Below the pieces are notes generated by a model. It was given only the letters and a program-made list of their open reading frames with translations, searched no databases and was not told the origin of the DNA. Shown in pieces: positions 3,265 through 9,839 of a stretch of DNA of 25,945 bases. Numbering within the stretch: the first letter of the stretch is position 1; the number at the start of each line of letters is the position of its first letter. The stretch is from Citrobacter sp. NCU1. GTDB taxonomy: Bacteria; Pseudomonadota; Gammaproteobacteria; Enterobacterales; Enterobacteriaceae. The stretch spans positions 1-25,945 of the forward strand of contig NZ_NRDO01000048.1 of the NCBI RefSeq assembly GCF_010231475.1. Reading direction: 5' to 3'. The position numbers and the translations under genes were made by a program.

Positions 3265-4614
3265 ATGACAAATATTGTTGTCTCCAAATTTGGTGGTACA
3301 AGCGTAGCCGATTTTGATGCCATGAACCGTAGCGCCGACGTGGTGCTTTCCGATACCAGCGTCCGTTTAGTGGTCCTTTCCGCCTCTGCCGGGATCACCA
3401 ACCTGCTGGTTGCACTGGCCGAAGGTCTGGAGCCGACAGAACGTTTCGAGAAACTCGACGCTATCCGTAAAATTCAGTTCGATATCCTGGAACGTTTACG
3501 TTATCCCAACGTGATCCGCGAAGAGATCGAACGCCTGCTGGAAAACATCACCACGCTGGCAGAAGCCGCCTCGCTGGCGACCTCAACAGCACTGACCGAC
3601 GAACTGGTCAGCCACGGTGAACTGATGTCCACCCTGCTGTTTGTGGAGATTCTGCGGGAGCGCAATGTCCAGGCACAGTGGTTTGACGTGCGTAAAGTGA
3701 TGCGCACCAACGACCGTTTTGGTCGCGCAGAACCGGATATCGCGGCGCTCTCCGAACTGTCAGCACAACAACTGGCTCCGCGTCTGAATGAAGGATTAGT
3801 GATTACCCAGGGCTTTATCGGTAGCGAAAGCAAGGGCCGCACCACCACGCTCGGCCGTGGCGGCAGCGATTACACCGCCGCACTGCTTGCAGAAGCGCTG
3901 CACGCGACGCGCGTTGATATCTGGACCGACGTTCCGGGCATTTACACCACCGATCCACGCGTCGTCCCTTCCGCACAACGCATTGATGAAATTGCCTTTG
4001 AAGAGGCGGCGGAAATGGCCACCTTCGGCGCGAAAGTGTTGCACCCGGCAACGCTGCTGCCCGCCGTGCGCAGTGATATTCCTGTCTTTGTCGGCTCGAG
4101 CAAAGATCCAAAAGCAGGCGGTACGCTGGTGTGCAACCAGACGCAAAATCCGCCATTGTTCCGCGCGCTGGCGCTGCGTCGTAAACAAACCCTGTTAACG
4201 CTGCATAGCCTGAATATGCTGCACTCCCGCGGCTTCCTCGCAGAAGTCTTCGGCATTCTGGCGCGCCACAATATCTCCGTCGATTTGATAACCACCTCTG
4301 AAGTGAGCGTAGCATTGACGCTGGACACCACCGGTTCCACCTCGACAGGCGATACGCTGCTGACCCAGTCACTGCTGATGGAGCTGTCCGCACTGTGTCG
4401 GGTAGAAGTCGAGGAAGGTCTTGCTCTGGTTGCGCTGATTGGCAACGATCTGTCAAAAGCCTGCGGTGTGGGTAAAGAGGTCTTCGGCGTACTGGAGCCG
4501 TTCAACATCCGTATGATTTGCTATGGCGCCTCCAGCCATAACCTCTGTTTCCTGGTGCCCGGTACCGAAGCAGAGCAAGTCGTGCAGAAGCTGCATTATA
4601 ATTTGTTTGAATGA
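3265..4614 (+). CDS. lysC: Lysine-sensitive aspartokinase III.
   Basis: The 449-aa product is near-identical to E. coli LysC (SKFGGTSVADFDAMNRSAD..., C-terminal ...CFLVPG.EAEQVVQKLH.NLFE). The RBS GAGG lies 7 nt upstream. Confidence 0.97.
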   Translation: MTNIVVSKFGGTSVADFDAMNRSADVVLSDTSVRLVVLSASAGITNLLVALAEGLEPTERFEKLDAIRKIQFDILERLRYPNVIREEIERLLENITTLAEAASLATSTALTDELVSHGELMSTLLFVEILRERNVQAQWFDVRKVMRTNDRFGRAEPDIAALSELSAQQLAPRLNEGLVITQGFIGSESKGRTTTLGRGGSDYTAALLAEALHATRVDIWTDVPGIYTTDPRVVPSAQRIDEIAFEEAAEMATFGAKVLHPATLLPAVRSDIPVFVGSSKDPKAGGTLVCNQTQNPPLFRALALRRKQTLLTLHSLNMLHSRGFLAEVFGILARHNISVDLITTSEVSVALTLDTTGSTSTGDTLLTQSLLMELSALCRVEVEEGLALVALIGNDLSKACGVGKEVFGVLEPFNIRMICYGASSHNLCFLVPGTEAEQVVQKLHYNLFE

Positions 4615-4625
4615 TCGCCAATACA

Positions 4626-4654
4626 ATGGCCCGGTCTGCATTGCCCCGGGCCAT
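4626..4654. terminator. Bidirectional hairpin terminator between convergent lysC and the NTase gene. 9-bp stem ATGGCCCGG/CCGGGCCAT with an 11-nt loop.
   Basis: A perfect inverted repeat seen in the 42-bp convergent intergenic region. Confidence 0.55.
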
Positions 4655-4656
4655 GT

Positions 4657-5451
4657 TCAGTTTCTCATCACCGTTTCATAAAGCAGCTGATCCAGTGCCT
4701 TCACATCGCCTTCCCGGCAATCCGGTAGCGTCGGCGGTATCTGGCCTCGCGCCAGTTCGGCGTGAATAAACGCATGCAGCAACGGACGCCGTAAACCATA
4801 TTCCACTTCTCCGGCACGCTGTTTACGCGCCAGCAGTTCCTCTATCTCCTGGCGTAATGGCGCATCCAGCTCACTGCCTGCCAACAGCTCGGCAAAACGC
4901 ATCGGAGGTACTCCTTTTCCCGCTTCAATCCAGCGAGCCGCCAGCAACGGGCGCAGAACGTAGAAGTACTTTTTCAACCGCACCTCTTCCCCCTGCAAAT
5001 AACCGCGAAAGTTTTTTTGCGCCATTGAGTAGTAGTGCCAGCGCGCGCGAATCGGTGAAAACCACTGTGGTATCATCGCCTTAAGCGCAATTACCGTTGC
5101 ATCATCCTGCTGATAGACCACGGGAGAGCCCAGCCACTCGATCAGCGTCGGGTTTGCCCCTTTCAGCAACCCCAGCGCTTTGCGCCACTCCCAGCCGCAC
5201 ACGTCCAGCTCATCGTCTATCGGCAGTTCGATCACGTCCCGCGCTGCTTCAACCCGCATATACCATTCCAGCGGATGGACATACAAAAAACGCACATCGT
5301 AATCGCTATCCGGCGAGGCAAAACCCCAGCCGCGACTTCCCGATTCACAGGCATACAGCACTCGAACGCCGTAGCGCGCCTCCACTTCTTTTAACTGCCG
5401 CGCGACCCGTTCGCGCATCGTGACACTCACTGAATTTTTCGTCATCTTCAT
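4657..5451 (-). CDS. Pol-beta-superfamily (minimal-type) nucleotidyltransferase, 264 aa. Last gene of the RtcR-controlled operon; it sits where rtcA lies in E. coli.
   Basis: It carries the hG[GS]-x10-DhD motif (CESGSRGWGFASPDSDYDV) in the N-terminal half. The C-terminal half is helical and contains RRPLLH (an R-x4-H, HEPN-like signature). Its ATG directly abuts the rtcB stop (TAAATG), and an AAAGGA RBS lies inside the rtcB 3' end. Confidence 0.8.
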   Translation of the reverse strand: MKMTKNSVSVTMRERVARQLKEVEARYGVRVLYACESGSRGWGFASPDSDYDVRFLYVHPLEWYMRVEAARDVIELPIDDELDVCGWEWRKALGLLKGANPTLIEWLGSPVVYQQDDATVIALKAMIPQWFSPIRARWHYYSMAQKNFRGYLQGEEVRLKKYFYVLRPLLAARWIEAGKGVPPMRFAELLAGSELDAPLRQEIEELLARKQRAGEVEYGLRRPLLHAFIHAELARGQIPPTLPDCREGDVKALDQLLYETVMRN

Positions 5452-6678
5452 TTATCCTTTGACGCACACGACCTGCCGCAGCGTATGAACGACCTCCACC
5501 AGCGAAGACTGCGCCGACATCACGGCGTCTATATCCTTGTAGGCCATCGGAATCTCATCGATCACCTCGCTGTCTTTACGACATTCAACATGAGCCGTCG
5601 CGCGAATCTGATCCGCCACGGTATAACGTTTTTTGGCCGCCGTTCGGCTCATCGTCCTTCCCGCCCCATGGCTACAGGAACAGAAGCTCTCTTCATTCCC
5701 CAGTCCACGCACGATGAAGCTTTTCGCCCCCATAGACCCCGGGATAATCCCCATTTGGCCTTTCTGCGCAGAGACGGCGCCTTTACGCGTCACCAGTACC
5801 TCTTCACCGAAGTGATGCTCTTTCTGCACATAGTTATGGTGGCAATTCACCGCTTCCTGCTGGGTGATAAAGGGTTTACTCACGATGCGCGACAGTACGG
5901 TCAGCACACGAGACATCATCACCTCCCGGTTCTGCCGGGCAAAATCCTGCGCCCATTCCACAGCTTCGATGTAGTCGTTGTAGTGTCGGCTCCCTTCCTG
6001 AAAATAGGCCAGGTTTCGGTCCGGGAGATTCGCGATATGCTGCTGCATATCCTGCTGCGCCAGCGTGATAAAGATATTACCGATGGCATTCCCCACGCCA
6101 CGCGATCCGCTGTGCAGCATTATCCAGACACGCTGTTGTTCATCCAGACACACCTCAATAAAGTGGTTACCGGTTCCCAGTGTTCCGAGATGTTGATGGT
6201 TATTGGTTTTCAGCAACGACGGATACTTGTCGGTCAGACGCGTAAAGCGCGGCACCAGATCCCCCCAGTGAGCACTCACCTCTTCTGGCGGCGTTTCCCA
6301 CGCGCCTTTATCCCGACGGGAGCGCGTATTAGTGCGCCCATGTGGGACGGCCTGCTCAATCGCGTTACGCAGCCCGCTAAGGTTATCCGGCAAATCGTCC
6401 GCCAGCAGAGAGGTGCGCACCGCAATCATCCCGCAACCGATATCCACACCCACAGCCGCCGGAATAATCGCCCCTTTGGTCGGGATCACACTACCGATGG
6501 TCGACCCCTTTCCCAGATGCACGTCCGGCATCACCGCCAGGTGTTTAAAAATGAAGGGCATCTTCGCCGTATTCAGCAGTTGCTGGCGCGCCTCGGGTTC
6601 TACCGGTACGCCGTGCGTCCACATTTTCACGGGCGCCGCATTCTGCGTCGCCAACAACTCATAGTCGTCATGCGCCAT
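5452..6678 (-). CDS. rtcB: RNA-splicing ligase RtcB (3'-phosphate/2',3'-cyclic phosphate to 5'-OH RNA ligase).
   Basis: The product is 408 aa, the same length as E. coli RtcB, and shares conserved blocks with it (MPDVHLGKGSTIGSVIPT, GTLGTGNHFIE, HNY, SCSHGAGR, MAYKDIDAVM, LRQVVCVKG). Confidence 0.95.
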   Translation of the reverse strand: MAHDDYELLATQNAAPVKMWTHGVPVEPEARQQLLNTAKMPFIFKHLAVMPDVHLGKGSTIGSVIPTKGAIIPAAVGVDIGCGMIAVRTSLLADDLPDNLSGLRNAIEQAVPHGRTNTRSRRDKGAWETPPEEVSAHWGDLVPRFTRLTDKYPSLLKTNNHQHLGTLGTGNHFIEVCLDEQQRVWIMLHSGSRGVGNAIGNIFITLAQQDMQQHIANLPDRNLAYFQEGSRHYNDYIEAVEWAQDFARQNREVMMSRVLTVLSRIVSKPFITQQEAVNCHHNYVQKEHHFGEEVLVTRKGAVSAQKGQMGIIPGSMGAKSFIVRGLGNEESFCSCSHGAGRTMSRTAAKKRYTVADQIRATAHVECRKDSEVIDEIPMAYKDIDAVMSAQSSLVEVVHTLRQVVCVKG

Positions 6679-6682
6679 ATTC

Positions 6683-7810
6683 TTATCCTTTAATATTCAC
6701 TAAGCCGTGGAGAACCTGGTCCAGTCCACCGAAAACCGAGATTTTATCGATACGTTCCGCCACTCTTTCAAGGGTTTCCATTTCCTTAAGCCGCAACGCG
6801 ATCGGGTTGTTTTCCATCACTTTGGCTGTGTTCAACAGTGAGCGTGTTGCCGCCGTCTCTTCTCGTCGGCGGACAACGTTCGCCTGAGCCGATTTCTCTG
6901 CTTCCACAACCTTCGCCAGGATGGTTTTCATCTCACCCGGCAGCACAATGTCCTTCACACCCAACGAGGCAATTTCAATACCAAAGGGCATCATGCGTTT
7001 TTTCACCTGCGCACTTACTACTTGATCAATCAACTGCTTATCCTCCAGCAATTCATCGAGAGTGCGTGTTCCCACGGCTTCACGTAGAGCGAATTGCAGC
7101 TCGCGGTAAAGGTGATCCAGCGGTTTCGCCAGTTGCCCAAAAGCCTGTAAAACATCCTGATAACGCCAGTTAGCCGCCAGATTCAAACGCAGATTCACTT
7201 TGTCTTTTGTCAGGATCTCCTGCCCCCCCACTTCCAACACCTGCAGTCGGGTATCGACCGCTTCGGCCTCCACAAGATGATTCACCTTCCAGTAAGCACT
7301 CAATCCTGGCGGCAGTAACGTCTGAGTTTCGCCATCGACTTTTAAAACGCCTACATGCCAGGCAGCAATAGACACGGTGAGAATAATATCGCGACCTTTT
7401 ACTACCCCACTGCGGCGGGGTTGCAACACGGCATTCATTACGTCTGCTGGAACCTGCACCTGCCGTGTATCCATACGCATCAGGTGCATGTTCTCAACCG
7501 ATTTCCAGTACAAACGACGTGTTGAGGGCGCAAGAATTTCTTGCAATACACCATTGATATACAGCGCACCCGCTTCAAAATCGGTTAAATCAGCGATGAT
7601 GCAATAGCGCTCAACCCATTCAGGCTGAAAACGGCGTAAATAGTCAGCCAACGCTTCCGGCACTTCACTGCCGTCCAGGTTAACGACCAGCACCTCAGGT
7701 GTATTGAACCACCACAGACGGCACTCACCCGCCTCCAGAACCTGATAGTAGTCACCATTCTTCGCTAACAGACCTAATTGCCCTTTTCGTATTGTAATTT
7801 TCTTCGTCAT
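6683..7810 (-). CDS. SPFH/band-7 (stomatin/prohibitin-like) domain protein with a ~145-aa N-terminal extra domain and no obvious N-terminal TM helix. First gene of the operon.
   Basis: The C-terminal half shows the classic SPFH core (LLPPGL..WKV..VDTRLQVLEV.GQEILTKDKV.L.LN...WRY, then the coiled-coil AEKSAQANVVRRREETAATR...). The ORF track extends to 7966. An internal ATG at 7808-7810 has a strong SD (AAGGAAAAGAGAA-ATG), whereas the ATG at 7966 has none. The stop lies 4 nt before the rtcB ATG. Confidence 0.8.
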   Translation of the reverse strand: MTKKITIRKGQLGLLAKNGDYYQVLEAGECRLWWFNTPEVLVVNLDGSEVPEALADYLRRFQPEWVERYCIIADLTDFEAGALYINGVLQEILAPSTRRLYWKSVENMHLMRMDTRQVQVPADVMNAVLQPRRSGVVKGRDIILTVSIAAWHVGVLKVDGETQTLLPPGLSAYWKVNHLVEAEAVDTRLQVLEVGGQEILTKDKVNLRLNLAANWRYQDVLQAFGQLAKPLDHLYRELQFALREAVGTRTLDELLEDKQLIDQVVSAQVKKRMMPFGIEIASLGVKDIVLPGEMKTILAKVVEAEKSAQANVVRRREETAATRSLLNTAKVMENNPIALRLKEMETLERVAERIDKISVFGGLDQVLHGLVNIKG

Positions 7811-8105
7811 TTCTCTTTTCCTTGTCAATTCAGGTGCGGGTGCAGAGGTGACGTCACAGGGAATTCCCTTTTGCCTACGACGCGGCATCATTACCGGCAA
7901 CCTGTTTTGGGGTGTGCTGACTGCGCAATACCCGTTTTTATTTCTATGATTAACAACCATTTTCATTGGAAAAATGAATCGGGAATCGAACCCATTGTTC
8001 AGGTGTCATTCGGTTGACGGAACACCTCAGGAAAACAACCGCTGCCGTTCCTGACGTGCCGGCGGGGTTTAACCCCCTGCGCTTTCAACGTGTTGACAAG
8101 AGAGT

Positions 8106-8124
8106 TATTGCCAGAAGCGTGCCA
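8106..8124 (-). promoter_or_regulatory. Predicted sigma54 (RpoN) promoter driving the SPFH-rtcB-NTase operon. Minus-strand reading: ccTGGCACGcttcTGGCAata.
   Basis: Perfect -24 element TGGCACG, a 4-nt spacer, and the -12 GC retained (TGGCA vs the TTGCA consensus). It is correctly oriented toward the operon and upstream of the AT-rich UAS-like region next to rtcR. RtcR is a known sigma54 enhancer-binding protein. Confidence 0.55.
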
Positions 8125-8129
8125 GGATG

Positions 8130-8258
8130 AAAAAAAGATGAAATTATTTTTAATTAATTGATTAATAAGGTATTAATTTTTACATTAATAATGATAATTG
8201 CAGATGCCGATTATATTTTTTATCTTTAAATATCGACATTTATCTTTTTGGATAAGCA
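8130..8258. promoter_or_regulatory. AT-rich divergent control region holding the rtcR promoter and likely the RtcR UAS/IHF sites. It contains ATTAAT motifs phased at ~10-11 bp.
   Basis: ATTAAT occurs at ~8153, 8162, 8173 and 8186. The region is extremely AT-rich compared with its flanks. Confidence 0.35.
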
Positions 8259-9839
8259 ATGAAAAAAAGGCGAGTAGTCATTGGCGTTCTGGGTACGGTA
8301 CTGGATAAACGCGGTAAGCGGGCAAATCGTTTAAAAAAATGGCGACCCACGGTCGGTCTGTGCCAACAGCCGGATTTTCCTGTTGACCGACTGGAACTTA
8401 TCCACCAGCCACGCGACGCCGGGATGTGCCAGCAACTGGCGGAAGATATCCATTTACTCTCGCCTCATACAGAGGTTCGTCCACACGCTATCGCCATTGC
8501 GAACCCGTGGGATTTCGAAGAGGTCTATGCCGCGTTCCTCGATTTTTCCACCCACTACACGTTCGATACTGCAAACGAAGAGTATTTGGTGCACATCACC
8601 ACCGGCACCCATGTAGCGCAAATTTGCTGGTTCCTGCTGACGGAAGCGCGTTATCTGCCCGCCAGTTTGCTACAAACTGGGCCTGCGGCGAAGGGCGTTC
8701 CGGAGGAGATGATTGCCCCCGGCACCTGTTCGGTCATCGATCTCGATTTAAGCCGCTATACCACGCTCACCAGTCGCTTCCAGCGCGAGCAACAGCAGTC
8801 CGTCTCATTTCTCAAAGCCGGTATCGATACGCGCAATGCCACGTTCAATAAACTGATTGACCGCATCGAGCGCGTGGCCCTGCGTTCTGGCGACCCTATT
8901 CTGCTTACCGGCCCCACGGGTGCAGGAAAATCCTTTCTCGCGAAGCGGATTTTTCAGCTTCGTCAGTCGCGGCACCGGGTTGACGGTAAACTGGTGGCGG
9001 TCAACTGCGCCACCCTGCGCGGCGATAACGCAATGTCTACGCTGTTTGGTCATGTGAAAGGGGCGTTCACGGGCGCACTGACGCCACGAACAGGTCTGTT
9101 ACGCGAAGCCAACGGTGGTGTGCTGTTTTTGGATGAAATTGCCGAACTGGGGCTGGATGAGCAAGCTATGCTGCTAAAAGCGATTGAGGAAAAAACCTTT
9201 TTCCCGTTTGGCTCCGATAAAGAGGTGCAGAGTGATTTCCAATTGATTGCGGGCACCCATCGCGATATGCCGCAATGGGTCGCCGAAGGGCGGTTTCGTG
9301 AAGATCTCTATGCACGTATTAATATGTGGAGTTTTGCCCTGCCCGGCCTCGCACAACGACGTGAAGACATCGCCCCCAACATCGAGTATGAGCTCCAACG
9401 TTTCTCCAGCAGTAGACAGCCCCAGATCCGCTTTGACAAAGAAGCGCGCGAGCGCTATCTGGCATTTGCCTGTTCACCTCAGGCGCAATGGCGCGGCAAT
9501 TTTCGCGAACTGAGTTCGTCCGTCGCGCGAATGGCAACGCTGGCCGAGCAAGGGCGTATCACCCTGGATCTCGCTGAAGAAGAGATTGCGCTGTTGCAGG
9601 AAACCTGGCGGGACACGGCGTCGCAGCCGGAACTGGAGATGGACATCGATCTCTTTGATCGCCACCAGTTGGAAACCGTGCTTGAAGTCTGCCGCCGCAG
9701 CGCGTCGTTGTCTGAAGCCGGGCGCGAACTCTTCGCCATTTCGCGGCAGAAGAAAACGAATCCTAACGATGCTGACCGCCTGCGTAAGTATCTGGCGCGT
9801 TTTGGCCTGAGCTGGGAAAGCCCCAAAGTCAGAACATGA
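8259..9839 (+). CDS. rtcR: RtcR-type sigma54-dependent transcriptional activator (N-terminal CARF domain, AAA+ sigma54-interaction domain, C-terminal HTH).
   Basis: The 526-aa product shares N-terminal (GTVLD..G.....W.KWRPT..LCQQ, NPWDFEEVYA, HITTGTHVAQICWFLL.EARYLPA) and central AAA+ (GPTGAGKSF, GAFTGA, ESELFGH-like region) blocks with E. coli RtcR. Confidence 0.92.
   Translation: MKKRRVVIGVLGTVLDKRGKRANRLKKWRPTVGLCQQPDFPVDRLELIHQPRDAGMCQQLAEDIHLLSPHTEVRPHAIAIANPWDFEEVYAAFLDFSTHYTFDTANEEYLVHITTGTHVAQICWFLLTEARYLPASLLQTGPAAKGVPEEMIAPGTCSVIDLDLSRYTTLTSRFQREQQQSVSFLKAGIDTRNATFNKLIDRIERVALRSGDPILLTGPTGAGKSFLAKRIFQLRQSRHRVDGKLVAVNCATLRGDNAMSTLFGHVKGAFTGALTPRTGLLREANGGVLFLDEIAELGLDEQAMLLKAIEEKTFFPFGSDKEVQSDFQLIAGTHRDMPQWVAEGRFREDLYARINMWSFALPGLAQRREDIAPNIEYELQRFSSSRQPQIRFDKEARERYLAFACSPQAQWRGNFRELSSSVARMATLAEQGRITLDLAEEEIALLQETWRDTASQPELEMDIDLFDRHQLETVLEVCRRSASLSEAGRELFAISRQKKTNPNDADRLRKYLARFGLSWESPKVRT

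What the first reader, a model, noticed from the sequence alone, without database searches (positions are those of the whole stretch)
4657..5451. The nucleotidyltransferase occupying the rtcA slot has an R-x4-H (HEPN-like) motif in its helical C-terminal half.
The N-terminal half carries a minimal-NTase signature (GS-x10-DxD: GSRGWGFASPDSDYD), typical of Pol-beta superfamily enzymes such as aminoglycoside/kanamycin NTases, MNT antitoxins and AbiEii/MenT tRNA-modifying toxins. The C-terminal half is helical and contains RRPLLH, which fits the HEPN R-x4-6-H motif (KNTase-like fused NTase+HEPN architecture). RtcA is itself a nucleotidyl (AMP) transferase acting on RNA 3'-phosphate ends. A different NTase fold in the same operon position therefore suggests functional substitution, e.g. 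adenylylation or nucleotide addition to damaged tRNA/RNA ends that RtcB then seals. Alternatively it could make a nucleotide signal sensed by the RtcR CARF domain (a positive-feedback idea, speculative).
Basis: inference. Interest (0 to 1): 0.6.

Follow-up and report, generated by a model that had tools for sequence, protein, structure and literature searches.

The report
RlaP RNA-tailing enzyme beside RtcB
The gene after the RNA ligase gene rtcB is an ordinary member of the known RlaP family, enzymes that add one or two nucleotides to broken RNA ends; its "HEPN-like" R-x4-H motif is a chance string that the family does not conserve.

Summary
The ORF at 4657-5451 (minus strand, 264 aa; NCBI start probably 5445) matches Pfam PF10127 RlaP end to end (E 3e-93). 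Burroughs and Aravind named this family in 2016 for its link to RNA-ligase operons. A December 2025 preprint showed that two Pseudomonas members add 1-2 NMP to RNA 3'-OH ends, prefer Mn2+ and do not act on 3'-phosphate ends.

The NTase signature (G38-S39 ... D50-x-D52, plus D83) is real and invariant. RRPLLH is present, but 70% of shuffles of this protein contain an R-x4-6-H. Only 8 of 120 diverse family members have both the R and the H.

RlaP does not replace RtcA. Related loci, and Pseudomonas, have the order rtcB-rlaP-rtcA.

The local operon is a sigma-54 promoter, a structured leader RNA with a T-loop, a Band-7 gene, rtcB and rlaP, with rtcR divergent. This arrangement was also predicted in 2016.

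Already known; low interest.

The parts
4657..5451 (-). rlaP: RlaP-family (PF10127) nucleotidyltransferase, 264 aa from the first ATG. The likely true start is 5445 (262 aa).
   Evidence: ORF list. Pfam RlaP E 3.3e-93, profile positions 1-248 of 249. 100% identical 262-aa protein from Citrobacter sp. NCU1.
5296..5340 (-). NTase catalytic signature G38-S39-x10-D50-x-D52.
   Evidence: G38, S39 and D50 are 100% and D52 is 99% conserved in 119 diverse representatives.
5203..5205 (-). D83, inferred to be the third catalytic carboxylate.
   Evidence: 100% conserved. [quoted passage not shown]
4747..5103 (-). C-terminal helical domain (aa 117-235) with a HEPN-like four-helix fold. It carries family-conserved H139, Y140, K160, Y164, R167, K210 and E215.
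4774..4791 (-). Not a conserved motif.
4666..4704 (-). C-terminal helix (aa 250-262). In the PfRlaP crystal structure the equivalent helix packs back onto the NTase domain.
   Evidence: Secondary structure of the model. Preprint description. The packing was not checked here because no coordinates were available.
5452..6678 (-). rtcB RNA ligase. Its stop codon abuts the rlaP ORF.
   Evidence: Pfam RtcB E 1.3e-131. Sequence.
6683..7810 (-). Band-7/SPFH (slipin-like) gene. The mechanical ORF runs up to 7966, but the conserved start is M53 (ATG at 7810).
   Evidence: Pfam Band_7 E 4.8e-25. The tblastn matches in relatives were made with the query cut at M53, so they show conservation from that residue on but do not test the upstream codons. 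The upstream 52 codons lie in the covarying leader RNA. PGAP calls the E. coli homologue a 'slipin family protein'.
7811..8097 (-). Structured leader RNA, about 287 nt, with an invariant T-loop-like GGGTTCGATTCCC at 7981-7993. Probably the enterobacterial counterpart of the predicted 'band 7-associated tRNA-like' RNA.
   Evidence: RNAalifold on 25 loci gives 48 pairs, 27 with compensatory changes. 95.8% of cells are paired against 41-51% when partners are slid, and 0 of 500 shuffles reach the observed values. Present in 25 of 25 Band-7 loci and in 0 of 11 without Band-7.
8109..8124 (-). Sigma-54 promoter-like element TGGCACGCTTCTGGCA.
   Evidence: The only match in the window, against 0.08 expected. 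The pattern matches in 27 of the 36 intergenic regions tested (window plus 26 loci): all Band-7 loci plus L023 and L024. It does not match in the Serratia, Erwinia and Pantoea loci or in L054.
8259..9839 (+). rtcR, divergent. CARF-type RtcR domain plus sigma-54 AAA+ activator.
   Evidence: NCBIfam RNA_repair_RtcR, 812.9 bits against a cut-off of 650. Pfam RtcR plus Sigma54_activat.

Best explanation
The gene encodes an RlaP-family template-independent RNA 3'-nucleotidyltransferase. D50, D52 and D83 would hold two divalent ions (Mn2+ preferred in the characterised homologues), and G38-S39 would position the NTP. The cleft between the NTase domain and the HEPN-fold helical domain would bind an RNA 3'-OH end, which receives one or two NMPs.

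The gene is the last one in an RtcR/sigma-54-controlled operon: structured T-loop leader RNA, Band-7, rtcB, rlaP. It is probably translationally coupled to rtcB.

The proposed role is to restore nucleotides lost from nuclease-damaged RNAs such as tRNA halves, around the ligation step.

Shown here: family membership, an intact catalytic signature, the fold and the operon context. Taken from homologues about 55% identical: the activity. Inferred: the physiological role. The helical domain is a substrate-binding module, not a HEPN RNase.
For: - Pfam RlaP E 3.3e-93 over the whole profile.
- 5171 family representatives; the catalytic residues are invariant.
- PfRlaP and PaRlaP add 1-2 NMP to RNA 3'-OH, not to 3'-P ends or DNA. 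They prefer Mn2+ and favour the nicked anticodon-loop end. Their crystal structure shows the same domain layout (PMC12776372).
- A Pseudomonas RlaP cluster is 56% identical to this protein, E 7.6e-86.
- rlaP directly follows rtcB (or the Band-7 gene where rtcB is absent) in most of the full-length related loci.
- Unique sigma-54 promoter plus divergent rtcR.
Against: - No assay exists on this protein or on any enterobacterial member.
- The RlaP product ends in 3'-OH, whereas RtcB needs a 3'-phosphate or cyclic phosphate. The preprint's authors flag this mismatch as unresolved.
- 11 related loci keep the Band-7 gene and rlaP after rtcB was cleanly lost; the 10 of these tested also keep the leader RNA. 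So a strict 'prepare ends for the neighbouring RtcB' role is not required.
- The biochemical evidence is a single preprint.
Confidence: 0.72

Rival explanations
1. Functional substitute for RtcA. The NTase would adenylylate or otherwise activate RNA 3'-phosphate ends so that RtcB can seal them, replacing the missing cyclase.
For: rtcA is absent from the window and from all Enterobacterales loci examined, and rlaP is the gene after rtcB.
Against: Characterised RlaPs do not act on 3'-phosphorylated RNA. The gene order is rtcB-rlaP-rtcA in L051, L053 and L054 and in Pseudomonas, so the two enzymes coexist rather than alternate. There is no similarity to the RtcA fold or Pfam families. E. coli strains carrying rlaP also hold a canonical rtcBA locus elsewhere.
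Confidence: 0.04
2. Bifunctional NTase plus HEPN RNase. The C-terminal R-x4-H would form a HEPN-type ribonuclease site.
Against: R and H are both present in 8 of 120 diverse members; D or N is commoner at position 226. The motif is expected by chance. No HEPN Pfam match appears at E<=0.01. NTase-fused HEPN-fold domains such as those of KNTase, GlnE and DrrA serve in substrate binding (established knowledge of those families).
Confidence: 0.03
3. Signal-making NTase. It would synthesise a short oligonucleotide or nucleotide second messenger, sensed by the RtcR CARF domain or by the Band-7 protein, as HalB does in the Hailong system.
Against: rlaP occurs without a detectable rtcR in Photorhabdus loci and in E. 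coli A37. It also occurs in phage T4 and with other ligases. The known RtcR ligand is a 5' tRNA half ending in cyclic phosphate. The assays show primer-dependent addition of 1-2 nt to RNA. No PADLOC defence model matches.
Confidence: 0.05
4. Antibiotic-modifying NTase of the ANT/KNTase/Lnu type.
Against: Sequence identity is 9-15% and TM only 0.38-0.46. There is no Pfam or NCBIfam resistance-family match. The chromosomal RNA-repair operon context is conserved across Enterobacterales. In the preprint the homologues labelled only RNA, not DNA or protein; small molecules were not tested.
Confidence: 0.02

Closest known systems
RlaP (RNA ligase-associated Pol-beta NTase, Pfam PF10127); characterised members PfRlaP and PaRlaP of Pseudomonas
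   Same: Full-length profile match. Same catalytic residues. Same layout of NTase domain, helical domain and terminal helix. Same placement directly after rtcB under RtcR control. About 56% identity to a Pseudomonas member.
   Different: Here no rtcA follows, whereas Pseudomonas has rtcB-rlaP-rtcA. Here the operon starts with a structured T-loop RNA and a Band-7 gene. No biochemistry exists for this clade.
Band-7 / b7a-tRNA / RtcB RNA-repair operon type predicted by Burroughs and Aravind 2016 (as cited in bioRxiv 10.1101/312249)
   Same: A Band-7 gene next to rtcB, with a tRNA-like element upstream.
   Different: The enterobacterial RNA is not recognised as a tRNA by ARAGORN or by the Rfam tRNA model. 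Only a 3-bp stem with an invariant T-loop is tRNA-like, set within a two-domain RNA of about 290 nt. A true tRNA-like gene sits before the Band-7 gene in L054. I could not read the 2016 paper, so the equivalence is inferred.
KNTase/ANT(4'), ANT(3'')(9), GlnE, DrrA, Hailong HalB (two-domain NTases with a HEPN-fold helical domain)
   Different: 9-15% identity and no profile-level sequence match. Different substrates (antibiotics, proteins, dATP only) and a different genomic context.
HEPN domain RNases/toxins (e.g. SO_3166, Csm6, HEPN-MNT)
   Different: No conserved R-x4-6-H and no Pfam HEPN match. The domain is fused to an active NTase rather than acting as a stand-alone dimeric nuclease.
RtcA RNA 3'-phosphate cyclase
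   Same: Both are nucleotidyl-transfer enzymes encoded next to rtcB.
   Different: Unrelated fold and family. RtcA acts on 3'-phosphate ends through a His-AMP intermediate (established knowledge), whereas RlaP acts on 3'-OH ends. The two co-occur in the same operons.

Membership tests
RlaP (PF10127) | Sequence match to the family profile above the curated threshold, over the full length. | tested here: met
   312.4 bits against a cut-off of 23; profile positions 1-248 of 249. phrog_14344 E 2.8e-114.
RlaP (PF10127) | Pol-beta NTase catalytic signature: G-S, then DxD, then a third acidic residue. | tested here: met
   G38, S39, D50, D52 and D83 are present and 99-100% conserved in the family.
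RlaP (PF10127) | N-terminal NTase domain, C-terminal helical domain, and a terminal helix that returns to the NTase domain (PfRlaP crystal structure). | tested here: inconclusive
   The order of secondary structure in the model agrees with the preprint's description. The packing of the last helix could not be inspected, and the PfRlaP structure is not in the PDB copy.
RlaP (PF10127) | Gene neighbourhood with an RNA ligase. | tested here: met
   Abuts rtcB. The same arrangement is seen in most related loci.
RlaP (PF10127) | Adds 1-2 NMP to RNA 3'-OH ends; Mn2+-dependent. | not testable with these tools
   Known only for PfRlaP and PaRlaP.
HEPN nuclease superfamily | Conserved R-x4-6-H catalytic motif. 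| tested here: not met
   R221 is 42% and H226 is 17% conserved; both occur in 8 of 120. The motif is at chance level.
HEPN nuclease superfamily | Alpha-helical HEPN bundle fold. | tested here: met
HEPN nuclease superfamily | Profile-level sequence match to a HEPN family. | tested here: not met
   No HEPN, DUF86 or KNTase_C Pfam hit at E<=0.01. The family profile finds no HEPN or KNTase chain in the PDB at E<=10.
KNTase / aminoglycoside NTases | Two-domain NTase plus helical-domain fold. | tested here: met
KNTase / aminoglycoside NTases | Sequence membership in a resistance NTase family. | tested here: not met
   No Pfam or NCBIfam hit other than RlaP.
RtcA cyclase | RTC cyclase domains. | tested here: not met
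   Only RlaP matches. tblastn with an RtcA from L054 finds nothing in the window; best E 0.18.
AbiEii/MenT (DUF1814) and MNT antitoxins | Profile match to those NTase families. | tested here: not met
   No such Pfam hit at E<=0.01. No PADLOC hit.

The most novel reading that the evidence does not exclude
In Enterobacteriaceae the conserved working unit may be the T-loop leader RNA, Band-7 and RlaP, not RtcB and RlaP. RlaP's physiological substrate would then be the operon's own structured RNA, for example tailing or repairing its 3' end to build a Band-7-bound RNP, rather than broken cellular tRNAs. This would explain two things: why rtcB has been cleanly lost from 11 related loci while the Band-7 gene and rlaP stay (with the leader RNA in the 10 tested), and why RlaP's 3'-OH product does not fit RtcB's chemistry.
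Probability: 0.08. Interest if true: 0.6.

Novelty: already known. Interest (0 to 1): 0.18.

Why it matters
As filed, the finding adds little. The gene belongs to a named family whose link to RtcB operons was described in 2016 and whose activity and structure were reported in a 2025 preprint. The one new claim, a HEPN R-x4-H motif, does not hold.

The remaining value is practical:

- RefSeq still labels these genes only "nucleotidyltransferase domain-containing protein" and "slipin family protein", and the leader RNA has no Rfam family. The operon can be annotated better.
- The enterobacterial variant has no rtcA and often no rtcB. It is a natural test case for the open question of how a 3'-OH-producing tailing enzyme cooperates with a 3'-phosphate ligase.

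Tried and rejected
- A PDB sequence search with the protein and with a 101-sequence family profile found no RlaP, KNTase or HEPN chain. The only hits were spurious helical matches to FtsY and NKP2. The PfRlaP crystal structure is therefore not in the held PDB copy, and I could not superpose the model on it.
- Burroughs and Aravind 2016 (tried as PMC5062991) is not held. What I say about it rests on papers that cite it and on my memory of its abstract.
- The preprint's supplements, which hold the sequence alignment of PfRlaP and PaRlaP, are not held. Identity to the assayed enzymes is therefore estimated from a Pseudomonas cluster member.
- NCBIfam has no model for the protein, and PADLOC has none for it or for Band-7.
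- Rfam at gathering score over the whole window, and at E<=10 on 7700-8300, gave nothing credible for the leader RNA. ARAGORN found no tRNA in the window or in any enterobacterial Band-7 locus. The 'tRNA-like' label therefore rests only on the T-loop.
- The sigma-70 promoter and terminator scan of 4550-8300 gave fewer hits than shuffles did.
I could not measure where R221 and H226 lie relative to the catalytic cleft, or check how the last helix packs.
- I did not build a covariance model of the leader.

Full report
**What is at the coordinates**

Window 4657-5451 holds one ORF on the minus strand, 264 aa from the first ATG. The identical database protein, from Citrobacter sp. NCU1 on a contig of 25,945 bases, has 262 aa. 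This implies a start at the ATG at 5445, which has an AAGGA 9 nt upstream.

The rtcB stop codon (5452-5454) abuts the ORF, so the two genes are very probably co-transcribed and translationally coupled.

On the same strand upstream lie rtcB (5452-6678) and a Band-7/SPFH gene (6683-7810). rtcR is divergent at 8259-9839. The flanks are lysC, pgi, a transporter gene and rluF. Related Citrobacter, Klebsiella, Enterobacter, Kosakonia, Phytobacter and Leclercia genomes carry the operon at the same chromosomal site.

**Family**

The protein matches Pfam PF10127, 'RlaP, RNA repair pathway DNA polymerase beta family', with E 3.3e-93 over profile positions 1-248 of 249. It also matches a phage NTase family, phrog_14344, at E 2.8e-114.

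The family is large. 5171 cluster representatives at 50% identity score E<=0.001.

Its history is as follows, according to papers that cite the original work:
- Burroughs and Aravind named it in 2016 because it sits next to RNA ligases of several kinds.
- They proposed that it repairs RNAs which have lost nucleotides after an initial cleavage.

A preprint of December 2025 (PMC12776372) characterised two Pseudomonas members:
- Only RNA is a substrate.
- One or two NMPs, or dNMPs, are added to a 3'-OH.
- Ends carrying a 3'-phosphate are not used.
- Mn2+ or Co2+ works better than Mg2+.
- The 3' end at a nicked anticodon loop is preferred.
- A 2.1 A crystal structure shows an N-terminal NTase domain, a C-terminal helical domain, and a last helix that returns to the NTase domain.

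A Pseudomonas RlaP cluster is 56% identical to the window protein, at E 7.6e-86. That is far above the preprint's 1e-30 clustering cut-off, so transferring the activity is reasonable. It remains an inference.

**The NTase signature**

GSRGWGFASPDSDYD is at aa 38-52. In 119 diverse representatives (40-60% identical), G38, S39, R40, W42, S49, D50, D83, G86, W87 and K91 are invariant and D52 is 99% conserved. A second alignment of 101 sequences agrees.

**The 'HEPN-like' R-x4-H**

RRPLLH is at aa 221-226. Three tests speak against it:
- **Chance.** The protein has 25 Arg and 4 His. 70% of 20,000 shuffles contain at least one R-x4-6-H (mean 1.1; observed 2, the other being RFLYVH inside the NTase domain). 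33% contain an R-x4-H.
- **Conservation.** In the diverse set the column of R221 is R in 50 of 120 sequences. The column of H226 is H in 20 of 120, with D in 31 and N in 21. Both residues occur in 8 of 120. Even among relatives at least 69% identical, both occur in only 35 of 52, with variants such as AAMPRIH, LPMPRLH and RRPLLQ. In contrast H139, Y140, K160, Y164, R167, K210 and E215 in the same domain are 95-100% conserved.
- **Sequence families.** No HEPN, DUF86 or KNTase_C Pfam family matches at E<=0.01. The family profile finds no HEPN or KNTase chain in the PDB at E<=10.

**The fold**

The full-length AlphaFold model is confident (pLDDT 88.5, pTM 0.85).

- Foldseek places KNTase/ANT(4') first (E 7.6e-6, TM 0.38-0.45), followed by 3c18, Hailong HalB, AadA and GlnE.

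The protein is therefore a KNTase/GlnE-type fusion of an NTase with a HEPN-fold helical domain. As in those enzymes, the helical domain lacks the nuclease motif and most likely helps to bind substrate.

**Not an RtcA substitute**

- No rtcA is in the window; the best tblastn E is 0.18.
- No rtcA is in any Enterobacterales locus examined.
- In L051, L053 and L054 the order is rtcB-rlaP-rtcA. The same order is reported for P. fluorescens and P. aeruginosa.
- Desulfovibrio-type loci have a long RlaP fusion protein next to rtcR and rtcA-rtcB.

The two enzymes coexist and have different chemistry. RtcA acts on 3'-phosphate ends, and RlaP does not use them.

E. coli strains that carry rlaP also have the canonical rtcBA locus elsewhere in the genome, so RtcA and RtcB can be supplied in trans. 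Whether this Citrobacter has a second locus cannot be told from the window.

**The CARF-signal idea**

rlaP occurs with no detectable rtcR in the Photorhabdus loci and in E. coli A37. It also occurs in phage T4 and beside other ligases.

The known RtcR ligand in Salmonella is a 5' tRNA half ending in 2',3'-cyclic phosphate, and RtcA contributes to making it (PMC7790460). Nothing here points to a product of RlaP as the signal. The fold similarity to the oligo-dA synthase HalB keeps the idea from being formally excluded.

**The surrounding system**

A sigma-54 promoter-like element, TGGCACGCTTCTGGCA, lies at 8124-8109 on the minus strand. It is the only match in the window against 0.08 expected. 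The pattern matches in 27 of the 36 intergenic regions tested (window plus 26 loci): all Band-7 loci plus L023 and L024.

About 287 nt separate the promoter from the Band-7 start codon. They form a conserved structured RNA:
- On 25 loci RNAalifold predicts 48 pairs, 27 of them with compensatory changes.
- 95.8% of cells are paired, against 41-51% when the 3' partners are slid by 1-3 columns.
- The covariation score is 0.335, against 0.05-0.09 for the slid controls.
- 0 of 500 shuffles reach the observed values.
- An invariant T-loop-like GGGTTCGAnTCCC is present in all 25 loci that have the Band-7 gene, and in none of the 11 rtcR-rtcB-rlaP loci that lack it.

The enterobacterial RNA is probably its counterpart, but it is not a cloverleaf. 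ARAGORN and Rfam find nothing. In the Burkholderiales locus L054, by contrast, a true tRNA-like gene, called tRNA-Thr(CGU), sits about 230 nt before the Band-7 gene.

**Variation in the operon**

Among the Band-7-containing loci, 15 including the window have rtcB. In 11 the Band-7 gene is followed directly by rlaP with rtcB cleanly absent: L003-L005, L007-L011, L013, L015 and L040. Ten of these were checked and keep the leader RNA.

E. coli A37 keeps only a slightly degenerate leader, the slipin gene and rlaP. It has no rtcR or rtcB at the site.

The preprint's unresolved point is that RlaP leaves a 3'-OH which RtcB cannot ligate. Taken together, these facts leave room for a role of RlaP that does not run through the neighbouring ligase. 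I give that a low probability.

**Verdict**

The ORF, the NTase signature and the helical HEPN-fold domain are real; the R-x4-H is chance.
RNA-end nucleotide addition fits; RtcA substitution, a HEPN catalytic site and CARF signalling do not.
- The gene is a typical member of an already named and recently characterised family, in an operon type already predicted.
- Interest is low.

Noticed in passing
window 7811-8097 (minus strand); T-loop at 7981-7993: Between the sigma-54 promoter and the Band-7 start lies a conserved structured RNA of about 287 nt with an invariant T-loop-like GGGTTCGATTCCC. 27 of 48 predicted pairs show compensatory changes, and 95.8% of cells are paired against about 47% in slid controls. 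It has no Rfam family and is not called as a tRNA. It is probably the enterobacterial form of the predicted, unvalidated 'b7a-tRNA'.
   Followed up: partly
window 7811-7966 (minus strand): The mechanical 427-aa Band-7 ORF is over-extended by 52 codons. Those extra codons lie inside the covarying leader RNA, and the Band-7 protein cut at M53 (ATG at 7810) aligns from its first residue in the related loci.
   Followed up: partly
L003, L004, L005, L007-L011, L013, L015, L040 (about 6860-8790 in each); L064 3989-5913: In 11 related species-level genomes rtcB is cleanly missing, and the Band-7 gene is followed directly by rlaP. Ten of them keep the leader RNA. E. coli A37 keeps only the leader, the slipin gene and rlaP at this site, with no rtcR, and has a canonical rtcBA locus elsewhere.
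   Followed up: partly
L053 50-1914; L054 10828-12348: Two rtcR / rtcB-rlaP-rtcA loci are flanked by tRNA gene arrays: 18 tRNA genes in L053 and 6 in L054. The last one in L054, tRNA-Thr(CGU), sits about 230 nt upstream of a Band-7 gene. tRNA arrays next to an RNA-repair operon could be spare tRNAs or the b7a-tRNA itself.
   Followed up: no
L055 6852-8798, L056 4696-6837, L057 6861-8795, L059 1374-3305, L060 6228-8801: Desulfovibrio-type loci encode long proteins of 640-860 aa whose C-terminal part is the RlaP match. Their N-termini also start with an NTase-like 'LFLTLFGSTLYGTE' motif, which suggests tandem NTase modules. In L055 and L059 they lie next to rtcR and rtcA-rtcB.
   Followed up: no
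L006 8847-16157, L015 8797-16725, L064 1-3960: In several genomes P2-like phage tail and baseplate genes are inserted directly beside rlaP, between it and lysC. The site therefore also serves as a prophage or tail-cluster insertion point.
   Followed up: no
window 4626-4654: A 9-bp inverted repeat, ATGGCCCGG ... CCGGGCCAT, with an 11-nt loop lies between the convergent stop codons of lysC and rlaP. It may be a bidirectional terminator, but it has no T-run and the terminator scan did not call it.
   Followed up: no
window 4657-7810 and E. coli L064: Public annotation is uninformative. rlaP is labelled 'nucleotidyltransferase domain-containing protein' and the Band-7 gene 'slipin family protein'. 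NCBIfam has no model for RlaP.
   Followed up: yes
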